From: Methanobacteriota archaeon
Lineage (GTDB): Archaea; Halobacteriota; Bog-38; Methanoflorentales; Methanoflorentaceae
DNA length: 64,000 bases
Reading direction: 5' to 3'
Assembly: GCA_963719035.1 (NCBI GenBank)
Contig: CAVRAO010000011.1
Span: 32,001-96,000 of the forward strand
Of this stretch, positions 3,546 through 19,000 are shown one piece after another. Both the position numbers and the translations under genes were made by a program. Every line of letters begins with the position of its first letter. The first letter of the stretch is position 1. Under the pieces are notes generated by a model. The model searched no databases. It worked only from the letters and a program-made list of their open reading frames with translations, and was not told where the DNA came from.

Positions 3546-3897
3546 TTAAATCACCAAAAAAGTAATAAAAAGGAAGTTATAAAAAGCTATCGAATCGTAG
3601 CACAAAGTGTATCTTGTTTGATAAAAACGTAATAATATATTAGACTAAAAATCGGGTCTACACGAATACGCTATGTTTGTGGAATCTCAAAAGATGAAGA
3701 GAGCAAGTCTAAGGTCATTTTAATAGACCCAGTTAAGCTAGCGTCAATTGATTAAAAGAAGTAATTAACTCAGTCCGTTCACTTTAGCACAGCAATACTC
3801 AATAGTAACGACCACCGCTCACCTCATTGATTTCTTTGAACGCTATAAGCGATAGAGTTCATTGCCATAGGATTAAATATGGGTGTTGGGCTTAGTC

Positions 3898-4110
3898 ATG
3901 CGCATGCTAAAAGCACGGAGCAAAATGCGGAAATCAAAGAACAAGGCTTACATTTACGTTCCTATGGCGATTGTTCTTGACGAGCAGTTCCCCTTCAAAA
4001 CTCACACAGACCCTGAGATGGTAGAGGTCGAAATCTCTATACAAAAGGGCGGATTAACGATTAAACCCATTGAACAGTCTATTCGTGATGATGCCTTAAT
4101 GTATGACTAA
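3898..4110 (+). CDS. Small AbrB/swapped-hairpin-like DNA-binding protein (paralog of 7201..7428)
   Basis: Shares R-SKN-A...P-M-I-DE-FPF...V(E)-I-G-L-I-P...DD..YD pattern with 7201..7428; fold assignment is inference. Confidence 0.6.
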   Translation: MRMLKARSKMRKSKNKAYIYVPMAIVLDEQFPFKTHTDPEMVEVEISIQKGGLTIKPIEQSIRDDALMYD

Positions 4111-4224
4111 CACGTCTTCCACCTTCTCCAACAAACGTACGTGGTTACAAACCAGTCGGCTGAATTTGTCTAAAAAGCTTACACTAGACACAATCACTTT
4201 GAAGCTTAGATCTTTTTTAACAAA

Positions 4225-4274
4225 TCTATTAGAAGTCTAATAATTGCTTGTTAGATTTCCATTAGACTTAAATA
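4225..4274 (+). promoter_or_regulatory. Operator array A (four TCTAWTAGA-like nonamers, 11-bp period) abutting TATA-like TTAAATA
   Basis: tctattaga 4225, tctaataat 4236, cttgttaga 4247, tccattaga 4258; AAGTCTA-N23-TAGACTT. Confidence 0.7.
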
Positions 4275-4294
4275 CAAAAAGAACAATTATGATG

Positions 4295-4415
4295 CGGCAA
4301 GTATCCCTCCTAAAGAGATCACCGATTGGCCAAACGTAATTGGTGCTTCGCGTGCGTGCTGGGATCCTCCTTTAATCCCAGCACTTGGAGCGATATGTGT
4401 CTCATAATCTTTTTT
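4295..4415 (+). ncRNA. Candidate structured small RNA with CU-rich anti-SD loop
   Basis: Downstream of TATA; hairpins CACCGATTG/TAATTGGTG and GTGCTGGGAT-cctccttta-ATCCCAGCAC; ends in T-run. Confidence 0.45.
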
Positions 4416-4629
4416 GAACACTTACTTACCCCTTGATAATATGCCTTCGCGCAGGACAGATAGTTGAAATAAGGACATTATCGCGCAAAGACCTGTTACA
4501 GCCCGCTTCCCTCTCTTCGATGAGTTTAAATCCCGTAGCGAACACTTGAATCACGATTAAAAAAATTACAGTTGGGGACCGTAACTTCAGAATTAGACAT
4601 TTCTATACGCTAGATGGAGGGCACATCAT

Positions 4630-5445
4630 TTGATGGACAAATGGGATCCCGAGGACTATTCTAAACATTCATATTCACAATATGCGTTCGCCTTGGGACT
4701 AGTAGGAAGGCTCGGGCTTCTTGGTAACGAGCGCATTTTGGATATTGGTTGTGGTGATGGGAAGATAACCGCTAAGCTTGCTGCATGTGTGCCAAACGGG
4801 TCTGTCGTTGGCATTGATTCCTCTGCTGACATGATCGCCTTTGCTAAAAACATGTTCCCGCCGTCAGAACATCCAAACCTCCTATTTCGCTGTGGGGACG
4901 CCGCGAAGCTCAAGTTTTGCCAGGAATTCGACCTTGTTGTGTCCTTTGCCTGTCTCCACTGGACTGATGACCTAGTGACGGTATTTCAAGGTATTAAACA
5001 GAGTCTCGCGCCAGGCGGTCGGTTTGCGGCTCAGCTCATGGTGAAGCGACTTACCACAGAAAAGAGAAGCGGGTCTCCGTTGCACCAAGCACGAAGAGAG
5101 GTTATAGATCGCCCCGCTTGGAGAGCGTATTTTCAGGGTTTCGAGAGGCAAGGGACGGTTTACCGTGCCGATGAATACGAAAGGATTCTGCGCGAAGCCG
5201 AGTTCGTCCCGCGCCGAATCGAGTTCGTTACGGAAGATGTGACACACCCCGGAACAGACGCACTAAAGGGGTGCGCACGAGCCACATGGCACCGGTATAC
5301 TAACCGAATTCCGGTCGAGCGCCGCCCCGCCTTTCTTGATGAGGTCGTGCAGCGCTTTATTGAGTTGCACCCTCCTGATCGCAACGGGCAGATACATGTT
5401 CGTGGGAATATATTAGAGGTCGAAGCCACGATAGCAAACAAATGA
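4630..5445 (+). CDS. Class I SAM-dependent methyltransferase (trans-aconitate methyltransferase-like)
   Basis: WDPEDY start, ILDIGCGDG, GIDSSADMI, FDLVVSFACLHW. Confidence 0.9.
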   Translation: MMDKWDPEDYSKHSYSQYAFALGLVGRLGLLGNERILDIGCGDGKITAKLAACVPNGSVVGIDSSADMIAFAKNMFPPSEHPNLLFRCGDAAKLKFCQEFDLVVSFACLHWTDDLVTVFQGIKQSLAPGGRFAAQLMVKRLTTEKRSGSPLHQARREVIDRPAWRAYFQGFERQGTVYRADEYERILREAEFVPRRIEFVTEDVTHPGTDALKGCARATWHRYTNRIPVERRPAFLDEVVQRFIELHPPDRNGQIHVRGNILEVEATIANK

Positions 5446-5531
5446 CTGTTTGCCGCCCTTCTGTTATATGAAGAATTTTGGTGCTATAGCGCTATGATAA
5501 GTGGTTGACGATCAAACCTTCTATGTTGCTT

Positions 5532-6428
5532 TTAGAGCTTACTTACGGTTTTACTGATCAGGACTGAGGTGTTGTTTACCTTGCCTGTCGGTAGCACCCT
5601 CCCCGACTCGTGAAACCCAGCCAAATCCTCTGCGGTCACCGTCGGATACAGGATCGCCCGCATGCCACTGTAAGTCCGATAAAGGATTTTAGTTTCCGTC
5701 GAGACAACACTGCGGACATTCGTAAAGACTCGATTTTTTGGCTCTGCAGACGCCCCTACAATAACCCCATCATACTTCAAATCCGCCAATGCAGATTCAT
5801 CGCCACATACCACTTCAATCGACGAGCTAAACCCTAGTTTATCGAGAACCTGTCTTGAAAGGTCCGCAATTTGTGGGACAAGTTCGAGGCTGATCCCTTC
5901 CACTCCATAGTGCGTATTGAGCAGCATTGACGTTAAGGGCACTGATCCCCCGCCAATGAACACCACCCGATCCCCTGCTGAGAAGGCTGCTAGCAGTACC
6001 TCGTTGCCAACTAAGGTTAGGTAGCGGTTGTAGTAATGGAACGATTCAACCTCTGCCCACGGGTCATCAGCTATCAGTATATCACGAGCGTTCTGAGTTT
6101 CAAGACGAGTGCCCACTGCAACGTAGAACGCTCGAATGACCTTTAAAGCCTCACTAATTCGTTCATCGTTAAGGATAAGCTGCGCCGATACAAAGTTGAT
6201 CTCCATGTCTTGCGCAATTACTTCGATCGCATCAAGCAGCGGGATGATCTTATCTAACGGCTGGCGTTCAAGATCGTCACCGTCATACTTGCTCAACTCA
6301 TCGGCTATTGCAGAGATTTTGACATAGTAATCGTTACGTTTCATAGAATCTTCGGCAACAGTTTTCACAAGTCGCGGTTCAGATACAACCGCTCGGTATG
6401 TAGTGTCGACTTTGCTGATAACAGACAT
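5532..6428 (-). CDS. Nicotianamine synthase-like protein (copy 1)
   Basis: FHYYNRYLTLVGNE, VFIGGGSVPLTS, AEPK, YRTYSGMRAILY, GKVNNT motifs as in archaeal NAS-like enzymes. Confidence 0.85.
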   Translation of the reverse strand: MSVISKVDTTYRAVVSEPRLVKTVAEDSMKRNDYYVKISAIADELSKYDGDDLERQPLDKIIPLLDAIEVIAQDMEINFVSAQLILNDERISEALKVIRAFYVAVGTRLETQNARDILIADDPWAEVESFHYYNRYLTLVGNEVLLAAFSAGDRVVFIGGGSVPLTSMLLNTHYGVEGISLELVPQIADLSRQVLDKLGFSSSIEVVCGDESALADLKYDGVIVGASAEPKNRVFTNVRSVVSTETKILYRTYSGMRAILYPTVTAEDLAGFHESGRVLPTGKVNNTSVLISKTVSKL

Positions 6429-6742
6429 TAAGGTTACGTTTCAACCTCTAGTGCTCACCGTGTCCATCAGACGATTCGCCACACAATAATCGTTCCTCGC
6501 GATGTCTTGACGACGGAAAACATATTTGACGTAAATGGTGTCCGCACAACATTGGTTGACGGTAGGCCGGGAGTTGCATTGTTCCTTTGATGTCTGCTGA
6601 GTGATGGCAAATCTTGAGGAGATCCTGAGGGTACCTCTAGGGCCCTCTCAAGCGTATCCGTTAGTCTTGCCATTTTTAATCGAGTTAGGCGGCGTGCGAA
6701 CGCTCGGACAGTGGTTAGAAATCAAAAAGCAGTCGCCTGAGT

Positions 6743-6850
6743 AAAAAAACGAAACAATTTCGTGGACGGATATACTTTGGTTCATAAACGGACGTGCTGG
6801 GAAAAAGAGGTGAAACGCCCAGCACATATATTCCCTACTATAGACAGAGG
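6743..6850 (-). ncRNA. Candidate small RNA with GUGCUGGG stem and CACCUC loop
   Basis: Minus strand GTGCTGGG-cgtttcacctctttt-TCCCAGCAC; ends in ACGAAA/TTTCGT hairpin plus T7; downstream of operator B TATA. Confidence 0.45.
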
Positions 6851-6874
6851 CTAACATAACTCAATGAACCTTAT

Positions 6875-6917
6875 ACTTAAGTCTATTGGAATATTTTTAG
6901 AATTCTTATAGACTTAA
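6875..6917. promoter_or_regulatory. Operator array B / divergent promoter
   Basis: TTAAGTCTAT-N21-ATAGACTTAA inverted repeat; nonamers at 6882, 6893, 6904. Confidence 0.7.
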
Positions 6918-7009
6918 CTGTATAGAAACCGTGGTGAGCAAAGCAACTTCATACTCATTTGCGTTCTATGTGTTAAGTGGTTCCCATAAGTTGGATGGAG
7001 TGCTAAGAT

Positions 7010-7180
7010 ATGTGGACATCAAACAAACTGGAAGTAAGTGTAGTGAGCATAGCCGTACCCCTGGCTATGTGTAGCGCTGGGTGCAACTCACAATCATCAT
7101 CAAGAGAACGAACGAGACGACCAGTAGTATCGTTGAGACTAATCAATCGCCTGGTGACCATAATGGGAGGAATCCAGTAA
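7010..7180 (+). pseudogene. Short ORF with lipoprotein-like signal (possible remnant)
   Basis: MWTSNKLEVSVVSIAVPLAMCSAGCNSQSS resembles the lipobox signal of 23997..24713; downstream of operator B. Confidence 0.3.
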
Positions 7181-7200
7181 TAGAAAAACAAGCGGCAAGT

Positions 7201-7428
7201 TTAGGAGTCGTAGAGGGACTGAATATCGTCGACTATCGGCGGACGTGGACTTAATGGGCTTATAATCAAACTTCCTTCACTAATCGCAAGTTCTACGTCG
7301 AGTCGTTCCGGCATTTCCGACCCATCACTTAACCGGAACGGAAATCGCTCATCCATCAAAATCGTCATCGGTATGTCCAAAAACGCGCTGTTCTTGGATC
7401 GCCTTATGGTACTTATCGTGCCAATCAT
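7201..7428 (-). CDS. Small AbrB-like DNA-binding protein (paralog of 3898..4110)
   Basis: Clear paralogy by eye; TATA box about 25 bp upstream within operator C. Confidence 0.6.
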   Translation of the reverse strand: MIGTISTIRRSKNSAFLDIPMTILMDERFPFRLSDGSEMPERLDVELAISEGSLIISPLSPRPPIVDDIQSLYDS

Positions 7429-7451
7429 AAGAAATGAGGTACACTGGATGT

Positions 7452-7495
7452 TATTTAAGTCTAATGGTTGTCTAATAGAATTCTATTAGGCTTTA
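7452..7495 (-). promoter_or_regulatory. Operator array C overlapping promoter of AbrB-like gene
   Basis: Minus strand CCATTAGACTTAAATA is identical to 4259..4274; nonamers at 7460, 7471, 7482; AAGTCTA-N23-TAGGCTT. Confidence 0.7.
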
Positions 7496-7649
7496 AGGTC
7501 TGCCCTTTCACATTCGGGGTGACGTCGAACAGTTCTGACGCGATTCTCTGTTTGGAACGATAATCAGATTTAATTCAGATATTGCTTGAAGCACGTAGGT
7601 CATATAGTGGAAAAACACAACTGCAACTAGGTATTTGATTGTACGCTCT

Positions 7650-8623
7650 ATGGATACTAGCTACCTCTATGCACTCAAAAACTGCGCGCTGTGTGAGTGG
7701 AAATGCAACGTCGATAGGCTAAATGGTGAACGGGGGGTATGTCGCGTTGGACTACCAGAAATAGCGTATACGAGCTTTGCGCAGGTTCTCAAGAGCTATT
7801 CGATCACCTTCTTGGATGTTGCTTTCGGTGCATATACTGCAATGCATACCGCATCTCACAATACCCGATGCAGGCTGGCTCTATCGGGGATATCGGAGCC
7901 GGAAAACGTCGCAACCGAAGTTCGCAGGGCCTTAGACACCAAAACTGCACAGGAAATTGGGATTCATCGGCTCAGCTTCACTGGCGGAGAAGCGTCAATC
8001 CACATCCTATCTCGAGGCAGCAGTCGATAAAACGAAAGAAGTAATCCCAGACGTCGCAGTAGGCGTTGCGACAAATGGGTTTTCAACACCACATACGCTA
8101 AAACGGCTGTTGGCCATCGCTTCATACCTAAATTTTGAAATTAAGGCGTTTGATGACTCGGTGCATGGGTTACTGACCGGGGCCCCGTCAAACCAGTGTT
8201 GCGCAATGTGGAGTTCGTCATGACGCGGCACTCAGGAAAAATTCGGGTGATTCGCTCGGTTGCGACCTGGCATCACCGATGCAGAGGTGCCGAAGATGCT
8301 GAGTTCATCAGAGATACCAACCTGACATACGGTATCGACTCATTGGATTTAGGCCAAGTTACATCTTATAACCATCCGGGCCACGAAGCGCATGATGGAA
8401 AAACTTGTAGGTCGTGCAAGGACTTAGGAATAAAACGGATGGACATCTCACCATTATATCAAGGAAGGGGCTGCACGTGAGAGCAACTCCACAGCAACTT
8501 GCAGCAAACTACTTAAGACACGCTGGATGCGTTACTGAGCCGAGAGATTGCGGTTCCTGCGCCGTGAAGAACAACTGCTCGGCAACGCTTATAGAGCCTT
8601 GGATGGTAAAGCTTTCCAGCTGA
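7650..8623 (+). pseudogene. Radical SAM protein (PflX/PFL-activase-like), split by several frameshifts
   Basis: CALCEWKC..GVCRV N-terminus, CxxxCxxC motif (GCCFRCIYC), SFTGGEASIH, VATNGF, EIKAFDD and a C-terminal Cys cluster in successive frames. Confidence 0.8.
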
Positions 8624-8761: not shown

Positions 8762-9601
8762 ATGAGCTGTTACGAGTATTGGGCTAAGATTTCCACGATA
8801 GCGGATGCGTTGGGCGTTCATGATATCAATGCCATCAAGAGAAAGGCCTTGGCCGAAATCGTGCCTCTCCTCGATGCGATAGAAATCATTGCACACGATA
8901 CAACCATTGAGTTTGAAGAGGCGCAGCACATTCTGGATAACGAACGAATGAACGAAGCTCTGAAGATTATTAGAGAGTTCTATGTCGCTATCGGGGAGCG
9001 TTTGGAGAAACAAATTGCTTACGAGATACTAGATGCAGAAGAACCGAGGATAGCGCTTGAGTCGTACCACTACTATGAACGGTATCCGATCTTGGTAGGG
9101 AACGAGGTACTGCTAGCAGCCTTCTCAGCAGGGGATCGGGTGGTGTTCATTGGTGGGGGGCCGCTGCCTTTAACACCGATTCTACTACACAAGTGCTATG
9201 GTATTGATGGGATAAGCGTTGAGATAGTGCCTGAGATAGCTGCGCTCTCTGAGCGGGTACTCGGTAAATTAGGTTACGGCTCTGAGATCAAGGTGGTTTG
9301 TGGGGACGAAACAGTATTGTCGGATTTGAAGTGTGATGCTGTTATTGTAGCGGCGCTAGCAGAGCCCAAAAAGAGAGTTTTCAGGAATATCAAACGTTTA
9401 GTTGCCGCAGAAACAAAAATTCTTTATCGGACGTATACCGGTATGCGGGCGATCCTATATGCGCCAGTGGTGAGCACAGACCTAACGGGGTTTCAAGAGG
9501 TAGCGAGGGTACTACCGACAGGTAAGGTAAACAACACTTCGGTTCTAATAAGAAAGAATCGAAAGTTTGCACCAAGCCAAGAAAAGCGTTTTAATCATTA
9601 A
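8762..9601 (+). CDS. Nicotianamine synthase-like protein (copy 2)
   Basis: YHYYERYPILVGNE, VFIGGGPLPLT, AALAEPK, YRTYTGMRAILY, GKVNNT. Confidence 0.88.
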   Translation: MSCYEYWAKISTIADALGVHDINAIKRKALAEIVPLLDAIEIIAHDTTIEFEEAQHILDNERMNEALKIIREFYVAIGERLEKQIAYEILDAEEPRIALESYHYYERYPILVGNEVLLAAFSAGDRVVFIGGGPLPLTPILLHKCYGIDGISVEIVPEIAALSERVLGKLGYGSEIKVVCGDETVLSDLKCDAVIVAALAEPKKRVFRNIKRLVAAETKILYRTYTGMRAILYAPVVSTDLTGFQEVARVLPTGKVNNTSVLIRKNRKFAPSQEKRFNH

Positions 9602-10224
9602 GCTCGCGATCGATCACCAGCGCCGAATGACAGTTGCCACTTATTAACGTCATCGCTCCCATAATGAGCCTTTAATGCTTCTTTTACCCCCCATCTAACA
9701 AGTTTCGCTACCCTGCTTCCAAACGGAGTGGCCAGTCCGCTGTATAAAATCGAGTCACCCTTGCTGCTATTTTCATACGCAACGATAACCGCATCGCTCG
9801 TCGTGCCTGTGAATTGCAATCCCTTGTCGCTCAGGGCGCGCGTCTTTGCTTCCGTGGCGGTAATTATCGTCCCTGCGATCGCCCCCTCGCTCAACGTTTC
9901 TGAGGATATGACAATTATGTTAATGGTGCCAAACGACGACGGATTCGTGAGTCCTGCAGTCACAAAAACCGTCACGCACGCACCGCTCAGAATCCGTACG
10001 TTCTGCATCTCAACTGCTGTGAGAAGCGCGAGATACCCCCCTTCGAGCGTCATTGATGCTGCAACGTCATCAATGTAGCTCTTCGGATCGTTGTGAGAAA
10101 AATCGGGGGAAACCTGGATGTTAAGGATATTTTTTACCGCTCTTCTGCCGCCGTCGACACCACTGCTCAGGGCTTCAAAGTTACCTTTCAGCACTAAGAC
10201 TCGGTCTAATATCTCATATTCCAC
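9598..10224 (-). CDS. cbiZ: Adenosylcobinamide amidohydrolase (copy A)
   Basis: TAG, GTINI, TATEAK, TGTTSDA motifs; follows corrinoid ABC ATPase fragment. Confidence 0.85.
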   Translation of the reverse strand: MEYEILDRVLVLKGNFEALSSGVDGGRRAVKNILNIQVSPDFSHNDPKSYIDDVAASMTLEGGYLALLTAVEMQNVRILSGACVTVFVTAGLTNPSSFGTINIIVISSETLSEGAIAGTIITATEAKTRALSDKGLQFTGTTSDAVIVAYENSSKGDSILYSGLATPFGSRVAKLVRWGVKEALKAHYGSDDVNKWQLSFGAGDRSRA

Positions 10225-10764
10225 GCTTGTTCACCTTCAAGTAATACACTTTGAAATGCGCTATCCGACGTGTGACTCTATGTATTCTACGAGCGTCTCA
10301 AGCTCTGTGAAAACGAGGCATCTCTCTCGTAAGTCCCCATATAAACGTTGAGCAACGCCTGGCGTAAAATCGCGAGACTCTATAGGCGTCTCCTCCAATA
10401 TGACGAGTTTATCTCCTGCAAGAGCTGCTGCTTCGAGGTTCTTTAAGTTCGCCGGCCCAAAGCAGATATTCGGCAGTACGACGACGCGTGCCTCCCGAAT
10501 GAGTTGTCCGTTACGGCTGGTCCACCTCACTCGAAATGGGTGAAAACGGTGCTTCGACGGCGCACTCAATGCCGTAGTACTGCGCTACGTCGTAATCGGT
10601 GTCGAGTGTGTTGACCACGCCGGCAGAGACGCTAAACCCTGTTGGATAAGCGCATGGATGACAGGTGCCCCCTTGCCCCCGCCGGGAATGACGTGCACCT
10701 TTTCAGAGCTGCGCTCTCCAGGCGTGTGCTGCGGGAGAAGTGTTATCGAAAAAGCGTTCGTAAT
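9650..10764. repeat. Direct duplication copy A (cbiZ plus btuD 3' part); copy B at about 12716..13830
   Basis: Near-identical DNA at an offset of about 3066 bp. Confidence 0.95.
10261..10764 (-). pseudogene. Duplicated 3' fragment of corrinoid ABC ATPase
   Basis: Matches 13327..13830 with small indels; lacks N-terminus. Confidence 0.9.
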
Positions 10765-11154: not shown

Positions 11155-11807
11155 TCACTCACCGACAACGTCTCGTGGAGTGAGCAAATCACGGCGCACC
11201 TTCCCCAAATATTCCACGACAAATCCCGTCACAATAGCCTCGCCTACGGCCACAAGCAGGTTCAAGAGGGGGACTTGGAGTGTGTACACGAGCAACGCAC
11301 TTCCCGAAAGGGCGCTCCCCTGTATCCCCGAAATCACGATGATGATTACTGACAAGGCGTTTCCGACAAGCAACCCGCCAAACGCCGCGACCGCTCCGCG
11401 GGTGAAGAGCTCAAAACGGCGGGTCGCATAATAGAAGAGGTAATACGCGCTCGCGACCTCGCTGATATTCACAAGGGTGTTTGCCCCGATCAGCCCCCAC
11501 CCGCCGTGGCTGATCGCGGCGCTGAGAATATTGACAATCAACACGATCAGCGACCCGATGGCAGGGCCGGCGAGAATGCCGATGAGTGGGGTGAGGTTCA
11601 TATGCACCCCGCCAGCGAACGGGATATTCACCTGAAATATTGCAAACGATGCGGCGGCGAGCAATGCGCAGTGGTGATCCGTTGGCTGGCGATAGTCTGG
11701 CGACGTGCGACGAGGAGCGCTACAGCAAGCACGATCAAGGCGATCGCCCACCAGAAGATCACCCACTGGATCGAAAATACTCCATCCGGCAGATGAATGT
11801 GTGCCAT
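11155..11807 (-). pseudogene. cbiM: Second CbiM-family ECF S component, frameshift near 11665
   Basis: MAHIHLPDG N-terminus in one frame; GGVHMNL..HGG..GAN in the next. Confidence 0.85.
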
Positions 11808-11898
11808 TAGCGATAGCCTCACGCGGTATCCCCTGTGAAGAGGATATTTTTTAGGTATATGCTATTCCTACCCTATTTATAAATAAATCTATTGATTC

Positions 11899-12408
11899 TT
11901 AGAGTAGGATCTTATCCTTATGCGTATAAACCAGCGTGTACAATAGCGGCTTATTAGTCAGGTTGCTGATATGATCGACCCGATCGACATGTTGTATCGC
12001 TTTAAGAATGGCGTCAAGCCGAGCGGCATACGTTTGCAGCATTTCGTCGATTTCCTGTTGCTTTTTCCAGTCAGCGATGCCCTTCTTCACTTCAACAAGA
12101 CGTTCCCTTGACATGTACCGCCACTTTCCATGCTGCCGCGAAGGCTCAAAATAGTAGTAGGGGCCGTGCAATGCGCCGGTCCTGCAGCGGCAACTCCGCT
12201 TACCACATCGCATATGCCGCTTTCGCAGTGAGCCGGGAAGCGGGTTCAGTTTGGCACGCTCATCAGTCAACGCCGAAATATGCTCAATGAGTTCGCTACT
12301 TTCGTGCAGCAAGTGCTTCACATGGACGATCTCTGATTCAGCACGATTATCCACGTCCTGTTCTCCTTCGTTTGAGCCAATGCGGTAACCGACCACGATA
12401 CGCTGCAC
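11899..12408 (-). CDS. DUF6788-like Zn-finger protein
   Basis: GSL...RCGKRSCRC..G..HGPYYY motif. Confidence 0.7.
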   Translation of the reverse strand: MQRIVVGYRIGSNEGEQDVDNRAESEIVHVKHLLHESSELIEHISALTDERAKLNPLPGSLRKRHMRCGKRSCRCRTGALHGPYYYFEPSRQHGKWRYMSRERLVEVKKGIADWKKQQEIDEMLQTYAARLDAILKAIQHVDRVDHISNLTNKPLLYTLVYTHKDKILL

Positions 12409-12684: not shown

Positions 12685-13290
12685 TCAACGACGTTGTGCG
12701 GCCGAGGTCTCTTCGCCGTTGCTCCCATAATGAGCTTTCAGCGCGTCTTTTACTCCTAGTCTGACGAGTTTTGTGACTCTTTTGCCAAATGGGGTAGCAG
12801 GCCCGCTGTACAGAATATGCCCATCATCACCGCAGTCTTCATATGCGATCACCACTGCGTCAGTTGTTGTCCCGGTGAAATTGAATCCGTAATCGAGAAG
12901 GGCGCGCGCTTTCGCTTCGGTGGCCGTAATTATCGCCCCTGCGATCGCCCCCTCGCTGAACGTTTCTGAGGATATGACAATTATGTTGATGGTGCCAAAC
13001 GACGACGGATTCGTGAGTCCTGCAGTCACAAAAACCGTCACGCACGCATCGCTGAGAATCCGTACGTTCTGCATCTCAACTGCTGTGAGAAGCGCGAGAT
13101 AGCCCCCTTCGAGCGTCATTGATGCTGCAACGTCATCAATGTAGCTCTTCGGATCGTTGTGAGAAAAATCGGGGGAAACCTGGATGTTAAGGATATTTTT
13201 TACCGCTCTTCTGCCGCCGTCGACACCACTGCTCAGAGCTTCAAAGTTACCTTTCAGCACTAAGACTCGGTCTAATATCTCATATTCCAC
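12685..13290 (-). CDS. cbiZ: Adenosylcobinamide amidohydrolase (copy B)
   Basis: TATEAK, TGTTTDAV; last gene of the btuFCD-like operon. Confidence 0.87.
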   Translation of the reverse strand: MEYEILDRVLVLKGNFEALSSGVDGGRRAVKNILNIQVSPDFSHNDPKSYIDDVAASMTLEGGYLALLTAVEMQNVRILSDACVTVFVTAGLTNPSSFGTINIIVISSETFSEGAIAGAIITATEAKARALLDYGFNFTGTTTDAVVIAYEDCGDDGHILYSGPATPFGKRVTKLVRLGVKDALKAHYGSNGEETSAAQRR

Positions 13291-13326
13291 GCTTGTTCAC
13301 CTTCAAGTAATACACTTTGAAATGCG

Positions 13327-14650
13327 CTATCCGACGTGTGACTCTATGTATTCTGCGAGCGTCTCAAGCTCTGTGAAAACGAGGCATCTCTCTCGTAAGT
13401 CCCCATATAAACGTTGAGCAACGCCTGGCGTAAAATCGCGAGACTCTATAGGCGTCTCCTCCAATATGACGAGTTTATCTCCTGCAAGAGCTGCTGCTTC
13501 GAGGTTCTTTAAGTTCGCCGGCCCAAAGCAGATATTCGGCAGTACGACGACGCGTGCCTCCCGAATGAGTTGTCCGTTACGGTGGTCCACCTCACTCGAA
13601 ATTGGTGAAAACGGTGCTTCGACGGCGCACTCAATGCCGTAGTACTCCGCTACGTCGTAATCGGTGTCGAGTGCGTTGACCACCCCGGCAGAGACGCTTA
13701 AGCCCTTTTGGATCAGCGCGTGGATGACGGGCGCCCCCTTGCCCCCGCCGGGAATGACATGCACCGTTTCAGAGCTGCGCTCTCCAGGCGTGTGCTGTGG
13801 GAGAAGTGTTATCGAAAAAGCGTTCGTAATCGGGTGTTTTCTGACGAGCGCTGAGACGCCAAACGCTTCCGCGATGTGCTCTTGGGTCAGTACCTCCTCG
13901 ACGGTGCCGTCAGCGATGATCTCTCCACGTTTTAACAGCAGCAGTCGATCACAGGTACTGAGCGGCGAGATTGAGATCATGAATAGCAGCGATAACCGCA
14001 ATGCCAGAAGCTGCAAGGCGCCTTACAAGGTCAAAGATCTCAATTTTGATCCCAATGTCGAGCTGTGAAGTTGCCTCGTCAAGAAGGAGTATCTTCGGCT
14101 CTTGGGCCAAAGCACGGGCAATAATGACGCGCTGTCGCTCGCCGCCTGAGAGCTCGGCAATCTTGCGATCAGCAAACTGAGCGACATCAGTCATCTCTAA
14201 GGCCTTTCGCGTCACGTCAAAATCGTACGTCGATTCGGTTCCGAGGAATTTGATGTGGGGGTTCCTGCCCATAAGCACGACCTCCTCGACGGTAAAATCA
14301 AAAAAAAACATGTCGGTACTCTGGGGCACGACTGCCATCTGTTGTGCGAGTCGTTTAGGCTTTATCTGGTAAACATCAACATCATCGAGCGTTATGATGC
14401 CGACTTGTGGCCTTAGCACCCCGCTGATTGCTTTAATGAGCGTTGTCTTTCCTGACCCGTTAGGACCGACAAGACCGATCACCTCGCCGGGCCTGACCGT
14501 CAGTTGTGCGTTATTGAGCGCTTGCGTCTCAATGTAGTAGCAGTCGACGCCATCAACCCGCACACGTCCTGGTCCTCCTGTTTCAGAGCCACCTTCTTTA
14601 TCGAGTATATGCATTAACCGTTTCCTCGTCCGTTGTATGTGCGGCAGCAT
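13327..14650 (-). pseudogene. btuD: Corrinoid/iron-chelate ABC ATPase with C-terminal extension, frameshift near 13952
   Basis: GPNGSGKT, LSGGERQR, LLLDEAT, HDLNLAAQY|CDRLLLL across two frames. Confidence 0.85.
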
Positions 14651-17245: not shown

Positions 17246-19000
17246 ATGACCCATCGAAGCGTTTCTCCGCCGTACGAGTATATTACCACTGAAGGGCGCC
17301 TTGCTGCCATCCTTGAGCGTATCGCGCCTTCGTCGGTTATGGCAATAGCGCTTGGAACCACGGGTCCTGACACCTTCGTTGACCGCATACGGGTCCTCCA
17401 ATTGGCAGTACCAGATCACCCCCCGGCAGTTATTGATTGTGCCCAGGTGCCCGAAGAGGGGCTGGCGAAGTTGCAGGAGCTCTTTGAGCTACCGGTCGTC
17501 AAGGTAGTGCATAACGGAAAGCTCGCCCTCAAGTTCCTCTGTCAGGCCGGATTTGGCCTATCCAGCCCATATTTCGATACGATGCTTGCCTCGCAACTGC
17601 TTAATGGTGGGTTGATGGATGCACGACACGATCTGAAAACCGTGGCAAAAGCGTATCTTGACGAGTACTTGCCGGAAACGTGCGGCATTATGCGAGCGGG
17701 CCCCCTTACCGATCAGCAGCTTCGATGTGCCGGACAAACGGTCAGCGTGGTCTTGAGCCTCCATGCGGCGTTATCCGAGCGCATCGCGAGCGCCGGCCTC
17801 ACCGACTGCATGCGTTTAGAGTGCAACTGCCTTCCCGCGGTTGCGGCAATTGAGCGCAACGGCATGCTCATGGACATGGGGCAATGGCGGACGTTGCAGG
17901 ATACGTATAACGAGTTAGAGGAGAGTCTCGCGCATGAGGTGCGCCGCGAGCTGACGACGTCGGGGCAGCGTACCCTCGGTGACGTTGCTGCCATCAATCT
18001 CGGTAGCCCCCACCAGGTGAAGCGTGCCCTCAGAAGCGCAGGTGTTCCTGTCCGCAACGTGCGCGAGGACGAGTTGCTTAAGTATGAGAAGTTGCATCCC
18101 GCGATCCCTCTTTATATTCGCTACAAGCACGTCTTGAAGCTCAAAAACGGCTTTTTGGATGCCCTCCCTCGGCACGTCCACCCGTTGACGGGAAGGGTAC
18201 ACCCCACCTTTCTTCAGGTCGGCACGGTAAACGGGAGATTCGCATGCCGCGATCCCAACCTGCAGCAAATTCCGAGAGACGGGACGGTGAGGGGGTGTTT
18301 CGTTGCGGCACGCGATCATCGTCTTGTGATCGCCGACTACGCCCAATTTGAGCTGCGCGTCATTGCGGACATCAGCGGCGATGAGACCATGACACGGGCG
18401 TTCCAACGGGGGGAGGACTTGCATAGGCTGACCGCATCGCTCGTGCTCGATACGCCCCTTGACCAGGTGACGAAGGACGAGCGCCTTATCGCAAAGGTGC
18501 TGAACATCGGTCTTATCTACGGAATGGGCGCACGGAGCTTACGGCGATATGCGAATTACATCTACGGTGTACACTTCACCCTCGAAGATGCGTTTGAATT
18601 TCGTAGGCGTTTCTTTGAGGCGTACTCAGGCGTGCGGGCGTTCCACCGGAGTATGGGCACCACACCACTGGTCTCTATCCGGACCCTAAGTGGAAGAATA
18701 CGCAGGTGGGCAGACGGCCAAGATCCAAAGCTGACTGAACTGCTGAACACCCGGGTACAGGGGACTGCCGCGGATATTATGAAACGGGCGGTGCCCTCCC
18801 TCCACGAAGCGCTTAGTGCGAGGGCAAAAATCGTCTGCTGTGTGCACGACGAGTTGCTGGTCGAAGCGCCGCAGGCACGCGCTGCTGAGGTCGCTGAGAC
18901 CGTCGCCTACCACATGCGAGCGGCAGGAACTGAGTTTTTGCGAACTGTCCCTCTTGACGTCGACGTGGCGATTGCTCGGAGCTGGGCGGGGAAGGTGTGA
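17246..19000 (+). CDS. polA: Family A DNA polymerase (exo + pol domains, no 5' nuclease), degenerate ExoI
   Basis: Motif A ADYAQFELR, motif B RLIAKVLNIGLIYG, motif C VHDELLVE; ExoI reads IALGTTG. Confidence 0.92.
   Translation: MTHRSVSPPYEYITTEGRLAAILERIAPSSVMAIALGTTGPDTFVDRIRVLQLAVPDHPPAVIDCAQVPEEGLAKLQELFELPVVKVVHNGKLALKFLCQAGFGLSSPYFDTMLASQLLNGGLMDARHDLKTVAKAYLDEYLPETCGIMRAGPLTDQQLRCAGQTVSVVLSLHAALSERIASAGLTDCMRLECNCLPAVAAIERNGMLMDMGQWRTLQDTYNELEESLAHEVRRELTTSGQRTLGDVAAINLGSPHQVKRALRSAGVPVRNVREDELLKYEKLHPAIPLYIRYKHVLKLKNGFLDALPRHVHPLTGRVHPTFLQVGTVNGRFACRDPNLQQIPRDGTVRGCFVAARDHRLVIADYAQFELRVIADISGDETMTRAFQRGEDLHRLTASLVLDTPLDQVTKDERLIAKVLNIGLIYGMGARSLRRYANYIYGVHFTLEDAFEFRRRFFEAYSGVRAFHRSMGTTPLVSIRTLSGRIRRWADGQDPKLTELLNTRVQGTAADIMKRAVPSLHEALSARAKIVCCVHDELLVEAPQARAAEVAETVAYHMRAAGTEFLRTVPLDVDVAIARSWAGKV

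What the first reader, a model, noticed from the sequence alone, without database searches (positions are those of the whole stretch)
4295..6850. Two candidate sRNAs sharing a GUGCUGGG/CCCAGCAC stem with an anti-Shine-Dalgarno loop
Seen: 4357-4385 (+) GTGCTGGGAT-CCTCCTTTA-ATCCCAGCAC and 6825-6794 (-) GTGCTGGG-CGTTTCACCTCTTTT-TCCCAGCAC. Each lies in a ~105-120 nt unit between an operator-linked TATA box and a T-run. The loops are complementary to GGAGG and GAGGTG, RBS forms seen in this window, including GGAGG before the downstream methyltransferase. Established: metal-sparing sRNAs exist in bacteria (RyhB, FsrA, NikS). Inference: archaeal metal-sparing antisense RNAs or cis attenuators.
Basis: partly seen in the sequence, partly recalled or inferred. 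Interest (0 to 1): 0.7.

Follow-up and report, generated by a model that had tools for sequence, protein, structure and literature searches.

The report
Constant-stem small RNA family in methanogens
The two hairpins are real members of an uncatalogued, lineage-restricted family with a conserved stem and a variable loop matching ribosome-binding sites; they are likely small RNAs that would damp translation, but these two copies sit behind a local operator, not the nickel-type box, so a metal-sparing role is unsupported.

Summary
Both hairpins exist (unit 1 is 4356-4384, one base off) and are the only two exact copies in the 2.19 Mb genome, against 0.008 expected. The same stem occurs in 6 of 24 genomes of this methanogen family and in 12 of 81 metagenome hits. 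It shows two-sided base changes, has no Rfam match, and one doubtful hit among 132 other genomes of the phylum. Loops vary but, on the promoter strand, pair with ribosome-binding sites better than shuffles in 4 of 8. Unit 1 is stand-alone: the methyltransferase has its own conserved promoter, and two homologues have no downstream gene, which argues against attenuation. The operator here is a distinct island-only palindrome that also precedes an AbrB/VapB-like gene. Only three relatives place the hairpin behind the NikR-type box; another follows amtB-glnK. No specific target was found, and the bias towards metal enzymes is reproduced by a bare CCUCC. Best reading: trans-acting anti-RBS sRNAs like Methanosarcina sRNA154/sRNA41 (0.5); metal-sparing 0.12. 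No transcript seen. The scan noted similar anti-SD hairpin families in this genome and in other methanogens.

The parts
4235..4267 (.). Operator 1: two overlapping GTCTA-N12-TAGAC-type sites (33-bp GTCTA-N23-TAGAC), abutting the TATA box
4268..4274 (+). TATA box TTAAATA of unit 1 (function inferred)
   Evidence: same operator-TATA junction in L189
4295..4415 (+). Unit 1, candidate ~120-nt RNA (ends inferred): 5' CCCUCCU at 4305-4311, GGCCAAAC..GGUGC motif at 4328-4346 shared with G008, G017, G022, G011 and L189, main hairpin, T6 run at 4410-4415
4356..4384 (+). Conserved hairpin 1; loop AUCCUCCUUUAAU at 4364-4376
4525..4531 (+). The methyltransferase's own TATA-like box (TTTAAAT), in a block conserved in relatives that lack the hairpin at this locus
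4633..5445 (+). SAM methyltransferase (Methyltransf_25/31), GGAGGG RBS at 4616-4621; a neighbour, not part of the RNA
5532..6428 (-). Nicotianamine-synthase-family gene (PF03059); true start probably 6344, judged by eye against the paralogue at 8762
6743..6855 (-). Unit 2, candidate ~110-nt RNA (ends inferred), ending in the T7 run at 6749-6743
6794..6825 (-). Conserved hairpin 2; loop CGUUUCACCUCUUUUU at 6817-6802; 3' arm CCCAGCACGUCC identical to G008 and G011
6874..6880 (-). TATA box TTAAGTA of unit 2 (function inferred)
6881..6913 (.). Operator 2 (33-bp, TATA-like boxes on both sides)
3904..4110 (+). Small AbrB/VapB-like ORF 1 (68 aa, probably leaderless); fold assignment weak
7201..7428 (-). 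Small AbrB/VapB-like ORF 2 (75 aa, 41% identical to ORF 1), behind operator 3
7459..7491 (.). Operator 3, in front of ORF 2 (suggests autoregulation; inferred)
3597..3635 (.). Different, NikR-type box (GTAGCAC..GTAATAA) at the nikM/cbiM promoter; NikR label inferred from position and recalled consensus; more than 600 nt from unit 1's TATA box

Best explanation
The two elements are members of a small family with a constant GUGCUGGG/CCCAGCAC stem and a variable pyrimidine-rich loop, and they are likely separately transcribed ~110-120-nt RNAs whose exposed loop would pair with Shine-Dalgarno regions of several mRNAs and lower their translation. In this genome their promoters carry an island-specific operator that is probably bound by the two neighbouring AbrB/VapB-like proteins, not by NikR. 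In relatives the same stem sits behind other inputs (a NikR-type box; the end of amtB-glnK). Shown: sequence, conservation, covariation, loop complementarity, operator placement. Inferred: transcription, the regulator, pairing in trans, repression and all targets.
For: The exact stem is in 3 of 40 relatives, with 0 hits for the reversed control. Homologues not used to build the model scored 64.8 bits (G017), 43.7 bits (L189) and 18.5 bits, E 0.003 (G021a). Twelve of 81 metagenome hits carry the family flanks. Nine-sequence alignment: 5 of 12 pairs change on both sides; 0 of 500 shuffles reach the covariation score; slid controls pair 33-51% of cells against 89%; RNAalifold finds the same helix unprompted. 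One-base indels among G008, G017 and G022 and no shared reading frame argue against coding. Loop shuffle tests: u1 22, u2 3, G008 33, G011 17, G021b 179, L189 535, G022 568, G021a 1208 of 2000. The six loops found by stem alone combine to p = 0.004. In 8 of 8 loops the promoter/context strand pairs better with the RBS probe than its reverse. L189 has a perfect UCACCUCC just 5' of the core, matching this genome's 16S 3' end GAUCACCUCCU. Stand-alone layout. Precedent: loop 2 of M. mazei sRNA154 and sRNA41 mask RBSs (PMC5867862 passages).
Against: Three of 8 loops (G022/G017, L189, G021a) are not anti-RBS beyond their composition, and G021a has no CCUC anywhere in the unit. A T-run of 5 or more follows the stem in only 3 of 8 units. 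G017 has an A-C mismatch in the stem. Most two-sided changes come from the two G021 copies, whose homology rests on synteny and the stem; one change depends on aligning a bulge; the rows are related, not independent. The family is patchy: 6 of 24 genomes, many incomplete. No specific target: the best hit for unit 2 (a TRAM gene, 16 of 16 pairs, -22.7) is matched by 9 of 60 flank-shuffled loops. Whole-unit shuffles are significant only for u2, L189 and G011. The AbrB/VapB call is weak: best Foldseek E 0.057, no VIA match, no Pfam family.
Confidence: 0.5

Rival explanations
1. Cis-acting RNA hairpin: a leader, attenuator or 3'-end stability/termination structure of a longer transcript, acting on the neighbouring gene (NAS for unit 2, fmdE in G021, the small hydrophobic ORF in G011) rather than in trans.
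For: The unit 2 loop is a 12-of-13 inverted copy of 6437-6449, upstream of the NAS gene; that site ranks 35 of 2355 start regions. In G011 the hairpin directly follows a 44-aa ORF whose GGAGGUGA pairs with the loop. Several homologues lack a T-run. TATA-to-stem distance varies from 48 to 141 nt.
Against: The methyltransferase has its own conserved promoter after unit 1's T-run. L189 has only a convergent gene behind the hairpin. The loop-NAS pairing does not form in the MFE of the 452-nt leader, and the matched site lies about 95 nt before the probable NAS start.
Confidence: 0.2
2. Metal-sparing antisense RNAs (RyhB/FsrA/NikS analogues) induced by Ni/Co shortage that repress metal-enzyme mRNAs.
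For: In G008, G017 and G022 the hairpin's TATA-like box directly follows the NikR-type box, divergent from nikM. The island holds NikR, a Ni/Co ECF transporter and NAS genes. The unit 1 loop pairs with 23 methanogenesis metal-enzyme start regions better than SD-matched genes (-10.0 vs -8.7, p 0.008), but not with 24 translation genes (p 0.12) or 12 ATPase genes (p 0.25).
Against: Both window copies carry a different operator, which is absent from metal-uptake promoters elsewhere in the genome. The bias is reproduced by bare CCUCCU/UCCUCC (p 0.05, 0.03) and by 13 of 20 core-keeping shuffles at p < 0.05, and I chose the gene set after seeing hdrA and mtrA among the hits. Unit 2 shows no bias (p 0.2). 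The G011 context is nitrogen (P-II). Only 3 of 17 nikM loci have the hairpin behind the box.
Confidence: 0.12
3. DNA-level palindrome: the relic of a mobile element or a recombination/protein-binding site carried around a rearranging island; the anti-SD look is incidental.
For: Near-invariant stem letters; patchy presence; varied contexts next to deletions, such as a btuD remnant in G017/G022 and a terminase-small-subunit-like fragment in G021 (phrog_6299 for the related G022 ORF). The G021 copies form long inverted repeats, up to 20 bp.
Against: The spacer varies from 12 to 18 nt, unlike a fixed protein-binding site. No target-site duplications were seen by eye in the flanks. Only 1-2 copies per genome. 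Loop strand bias in 8 of 8, G-U pairs at the stem base, and none of 59 viral stem hits has the family's upstream motif.
Confidence: 0.13
4. Chance similarity of two unrelated hairpins.
For: 10 of 171 GC-rich hairpin stems recur in this genome.
Against: Homologues share flanks and synteny, and show covariation.
Confidence: 0.02

Closest known systems
Methanosarcina mazei sRNA154 (loop 2) and sRNA41
   Same: Intergenic methanogen sRNAs that mask ribosome-binding sites; sRNA154 does so with an anti-RBS hairpin loop (PMC5867862, passages).
   Different: No Rfam match; the family was found only in this lineage; the regulator here is an island operator; targets and transcripts are not shown. The sRNA154 paper was not held, so sequences were not compared directly.
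M. mazei sRNA162
   Same: Masks an RBS by base pairing; its variable single-stranded region is the pairing part; homologues only in close relatives (PMC3510493, passages).
   Different: sRNA162 pairs through a 39-nt linker between stems and has one dominant target; here a 12-18-nt loop with no dominant target.
RyhB, FsrA and NikS (bacterial metal-regulated sRNAs)
   Same: Three relatives place the hairpin behind a NikR-type box; loops are C/U-rich.
   Different: These sRNAs are controlled by Fur or NikR (PMC9294342, passages). The two window copies lack the NikR-type box, and metal-enzyme targeting is not specific.
UCCC/CU-loop sRNAs of Firmicutes (RNAIII, RsaE, LhrC); recalled, not tested
   Same: Anti-SD seeds shown in hairpin loops, often several per RNA.
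   Different: Different domain of life; no Rfam similarity.

Membership tests
Archaeal trans-acting anti-RBS sRNA (sRNA154/sRNA41 kind) | Intergenic, non-coding, with its own promoter and terminator signals | tested here: met
   Window copies: TATA boxes and T-runs present, no shared ORF. A T-run follows the stem in only 3 of 8 family units.
Archaeal trans-acting anti-RBS sRNA (sRNA154/sRNA41 kind) | Conserved secondary structure with covariation | tested here: met
   5 of 12 pairs with two-sided change, 0 of 500 shuffles; leans on the G021 copies.
Archaeal trans-acting anti-RBS sRNA (sRNA154/sRNA41 kind) | Exposed anti-RBS sequence | tested here: inconclusive
   Met for both window copies, G008 and G011; not for G022/G017, L189 or G021a loops.
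Archaeal trans-acting anti-RBS sRNA (sRNA154/sRNA41 kind) | Discrete transcript and demonstrated pairing with a target mRNA | not testable with these tools
   No reads were available to lay on the region; target scans gave no standout.
Rfam families (any) | Covariance-model match | tested here: not met
   Only a tRNA in the window at gathering score; nothing at E <= 5 in 4100-7500.
Metal-sparing sRNA (RyhB/FsrA/NikS kind) | Promoter carries the metal regulator's box | tested here: not met
   The window copies carry a different operator; met only for G008, G017 and G022, and the NikR label is inferred.
Metal-sparing sRNA (RyhB/FsrA/NikS kind) | Targets are metal-enzyme mRNAs | tested here: inconclusive
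   Unit 1 p 0.008 but reproduced by a bare core; unit 2 p 0.2.
Metal-sparing sRNA (RyhB/FsrA/NikS kind) | Induced by metal limitation | not testable with these tools
   Needs expression data.
Cis attenuator / leader RNA | Always upstream of a same-strand gene that lacks its own promoter | tested here: not met
   Methyltransferase promoter is separate; no same-strand downstream gene in L189 or G011.
MITE / IS relic | Terminal inverted repeats with target-site duplication and many copies | tested here: not met
   1-2 copies per genome; no duplications seen by eye.

The most novel reading that the evidence does not exclude
A portable RNA module: one protein-recognised stem presents a loop that mimics the 16S rRNA 3' end and acts as a broad translational damper. 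It has been re-wired behind AbrB-like, NikR and nitrogen inputs in different strains, and the nikM-divergent copies would be a nickel-responsive sRNA in an archaeon, of which I found no report in my searches.
Probability: 0.15. Interest if true: 0.72.

Novelty: new member of a known kind. Interest (0 to 1): 0.42.

Why it matters
Only a handful of archaeal sRNAs have known targets. This adds an uncatalogued family with a defined, covarying scaffold and natural loop variants, which makes loop-swap tests on RBS reporters straightforward. If the copies behind the NikR-type box respond to nickel, they would give a handle on post-transcriptional nickel economy in methanogens, whose core enzymes need nickel. 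The value is limited by the narrow, patchy distribution, an uncultured host and no transcript evidence, and the scan has already noted several similar anti-SD hairpin families in methanogens.

Tried and rejected
RNA runs: no RNA holder was listed, so no reads were laid; this is no evidence either way.

BLAST-type search with 3850-4640 found only this genome among 41. The pattern GGTGC-N-GTGCTGGG gave 22 hits in 24 genomes, near control level; only the 4 known copies fold as the hairpin. The genome-contig scan gave 76 stretches, 3 of them family members and the rest judged chance. Viral scans: 59 stem hits, none with the family's upstream motif; one 16-aa AbrB-like fragment among 113 candidates.

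The pattern was mis-specified and could not match the window's own hairpins; it recovered only the two G021 copies. Model R2 and one search used a structure string off by one and were discarded; replace them. A 57-nt-loop copy in G021 was left out of all counts because about 0.6 chance matches are expected (my estimate). The G071 hit is a contig-end A-rich hairpin and was rejected. A relaxed 7-bp stem pattern was near control level outside this genome.

A search for loop-target covariation in G008, G017 and G022 gave 20 matches against 21 control matches. TRAM genes as specific unit 2 targets (ranks 1, 3 and 34; family confirmed) were not better than flank-shuffled loops. Micro-ORFs on either strand are not conserved. 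Gene starts for the target scans came from my crude caller (2355 ORFs of 80 aa or more); some are wrong, and the metal-enzyme, ribosomal and ATPase names were assigned by eye apart from three Pfam anchors. The AbrB fold was not confirmed by VIA or Pfam.

Full report
Observation. They are the only exact copies in the 2.19 Mb genome, with 0.0075 expected. Each follows a 33-bp operator that abuts a TATA-like box and precedes a T6 or T7 run. Unit 1 folds well (z -3.7); unit 2 folds modestly (z -1.5). Rfam has nothing here at either threshold. The genome is a methanogen (mcrA, mtrA, NiFe hydrogenases); a record title points to the Bog-38 lineage, and the name Ca. Methanoflorens for it is recalled.

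Neighbourhood. The units point towards each other around a methyltransferase and a nicotianamine-synthase gene, inside a Ni/Co island with NikR, CbiM/CbiQ and CbiZ. Upstream of each lies a small ORF (3904-4110 and 7428-7201, 41% identical). Their relatives number 25. The model's best structural hits are VapB DNA-binding domains, but only at E 0.057; VIA and Pfam give nothing, so AbrB/VapB-like is a lead. A profile of the operator finds three strong sites in the whole genome: before unit 1, before unit 2 and before the second small ORF. That fits autoregulation by these proteins (inferred). The box at the nikM promoter is a different sequence, seen by eye at all 17 nikM loci whose start I could place, of 18 examined.

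Homologues. The exact stem occurs in G008, G011 and G022 among 40 relatives, with no control hits. These share an upstream GGCCA..GGTGC motif with unit 1. A model built on five copies found G017 (64.8 bits), the metagenomic L189 type (43.7 bits) and a G021 copy with a G-C to A-U swap (18.5 bits). A second G021 copy came from a relaxed pattern. In all, 6 of 24 family genomes carry it, and 12 of 81 metagenome pattern hits are members, of four types. Among 132 genomes of other families there was one hit, which I reject. On nine copies, 89% of stem cells pair, 5 of 12 pairs change on both sides, and no shuffle of 500 reaches the covariation score. RNAalifold predicts the same helix. Most two-sided changes come from the G021 copies, and the rows are related, so this is good but not overwhelming support.

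Contexts differ. In G008, G017 and G022 the element starts right after the NikR-type box, divergent from nikM, and is followed by remnants of transporter genes. In L189 it has the same ORF-operator-TATA order as unit 1 but only a convergent NAS gene behind it. In G011 it follows amtB, a P-II gene and a 44-aa hydrophobic ORF. In G021 one copy lies behind the unit-2-type operator upstream of fmdE, and the other after a small gene. The window's methyltransferase has its own promoter block, conserved in G005, G007 and G014, which lack the hairpin at that locus. This argues against a dedicated attenuator and for a self-contained unit.

Loops. Against an RBS-consensus probe, four of eight loops beat composition-preserving shuffles (u1 22, u2 3, G008 33, G011 17 of 2000), one is marginal (G021b 179), and three do not (L189, G022, G021a). 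In all eight, the strand expected from promoter or context pairs better than its reverse. L189 carries a perfect UCACCUCC just upstream of the core instead. The motif equals the genome's own 16S 3' end.

Targets. On 2355 crude start regions, loop energies track general SD strength (r 0.58 and 0.63); 102 and 265 regions reach -12 kcal/mol. Unit 2's best hit is a stand-alone TRAM gene (16 of 16 pairs), with paralogues at ranks 3 and 34, but 9 of 60 flank-shuffled loops find an equally good best hit. The site upstream of the neighbouring NAS gene ranks 35 but probably lies about 95 nt before the true start and does not form in the leader's predicted fold. Unit 1 favours 23 methanogenesis metal-enzyme starts over SD-matched genes (p 0.008), unlike translation or ATPase genes, but a bare CCUCC core gives p 0.03-0.05 and unit 2 shows nothing. 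So the loops are generic anti-RBS seeds, with at most a tilt towards GGAGG-type sites.

Mechanism. The most likely reading (0.5) is two short RNAs from operator-controlled promoters, with a stable stem displaying an anti-RBS loop that blocks 30S binding on a set of mRNAs. Transcription, regulator and targets are all inferred. Rivals are a cis hairpin (0.2), a DNA-level relic (0.13), a metal-sparing sRNA (0.12) and chance (0.02).

Comparison with print. It works like M. mazei sRNA154 loop 2 and sRNA41 (review PMC5867862, passages) and sRNA162 (PMC3510493, passages). The sRNA154 paper itself was not held. RyhB, FsrA and NikS are defined by Fur or NikR control (PMC9294342, passages), which the window copies do not meet. 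Seven searches (listings and abstract starts only) showed no description of this family; most subscription papers and all supplements were not seen. Unchecked notes of this scan describe similar constant-stem, anti-SD-loop families in Methanothrix and two other sibling families in this genome. My model finds no further copy in this genome below E 0.1, so those appear to be separate families.

Verdict. A real, conserved, uncatalogued hairpin element, probably an anti-RBS sRNA family of one methanogen lineage: a new member of a known kind, interest 0.42. The metal-sparing label is not earned by these two copies.

Noticed in passing
window 9598-10569 and 12685-14016 (-): Near-identical duplication of cbiZ plus the 3' part of the ABC ATPase gene, flanking a broken second cbiM-like gene (11155-11822) and a DUF6788 ORF (11899-12408).
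   Followed up: no
window 7635-8620 (+): Radical SAM gene in several frames, so broken or mis-assembled; intact ~330-aa homologues lie divergent from nikM in G021 and G022.
   Followed up: partly
window 5532-6428 (-) and 8762-9601 (+): Two nicotianamine-synthase-family genes in a Ni/Co uptake island; NAS also lies beside nikM in G001, G021 and G022, hinting at a metallophore for Ni/Co in this lineage.
   Followed up: partly
window 17246-19000 (+): Family A DNA polymerase with 3'-5' exonuclease domain in an archaeon, next to the cobalamin-type ABC operon; also in G001.
   Followed up: no
G000 C2:490140 and C2:543262 (L351, L352): Two more intergenic hairpins with a GCTGCTGG/CCAGCAGC stem and C/U-rich loops, one between the hdr/frhB-like operon and the mvh-type hydrogenase genes; TGCTGG inverted repeats number 5 in intergenic DNA against a mean of 0.5. 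Possible distant members.
   Followed up: partly
L045 1566-1700, L309 5100-5840, L312 2233-2418: Small, very hydrophobic ORFs (44-80 aa) with strong RBSs near family hairpins or in the same island; the two scanned have no Pfam or PHROG family.
   Followed up: partly
L312 1511-1924 and L309 6064-6400: Terminase small-subunit-like fragment (phrog_6299 for the L312 copy) inside the island of two relatives, suggesting viral debris.
   Followed up: no
window 3707-3728 and 4168-4189: Two further single GTCTA-N12-TAGAC sites, the only exact ones in the genome, on either side of small ORF 1.
   Followed up: partly
G000 C8:384628, C8:43561, C2:203024: Three stand-alone TRAM genes share a very strong A-rich GGAGGTGA RBS and GTG starts.
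   Followed up: partly
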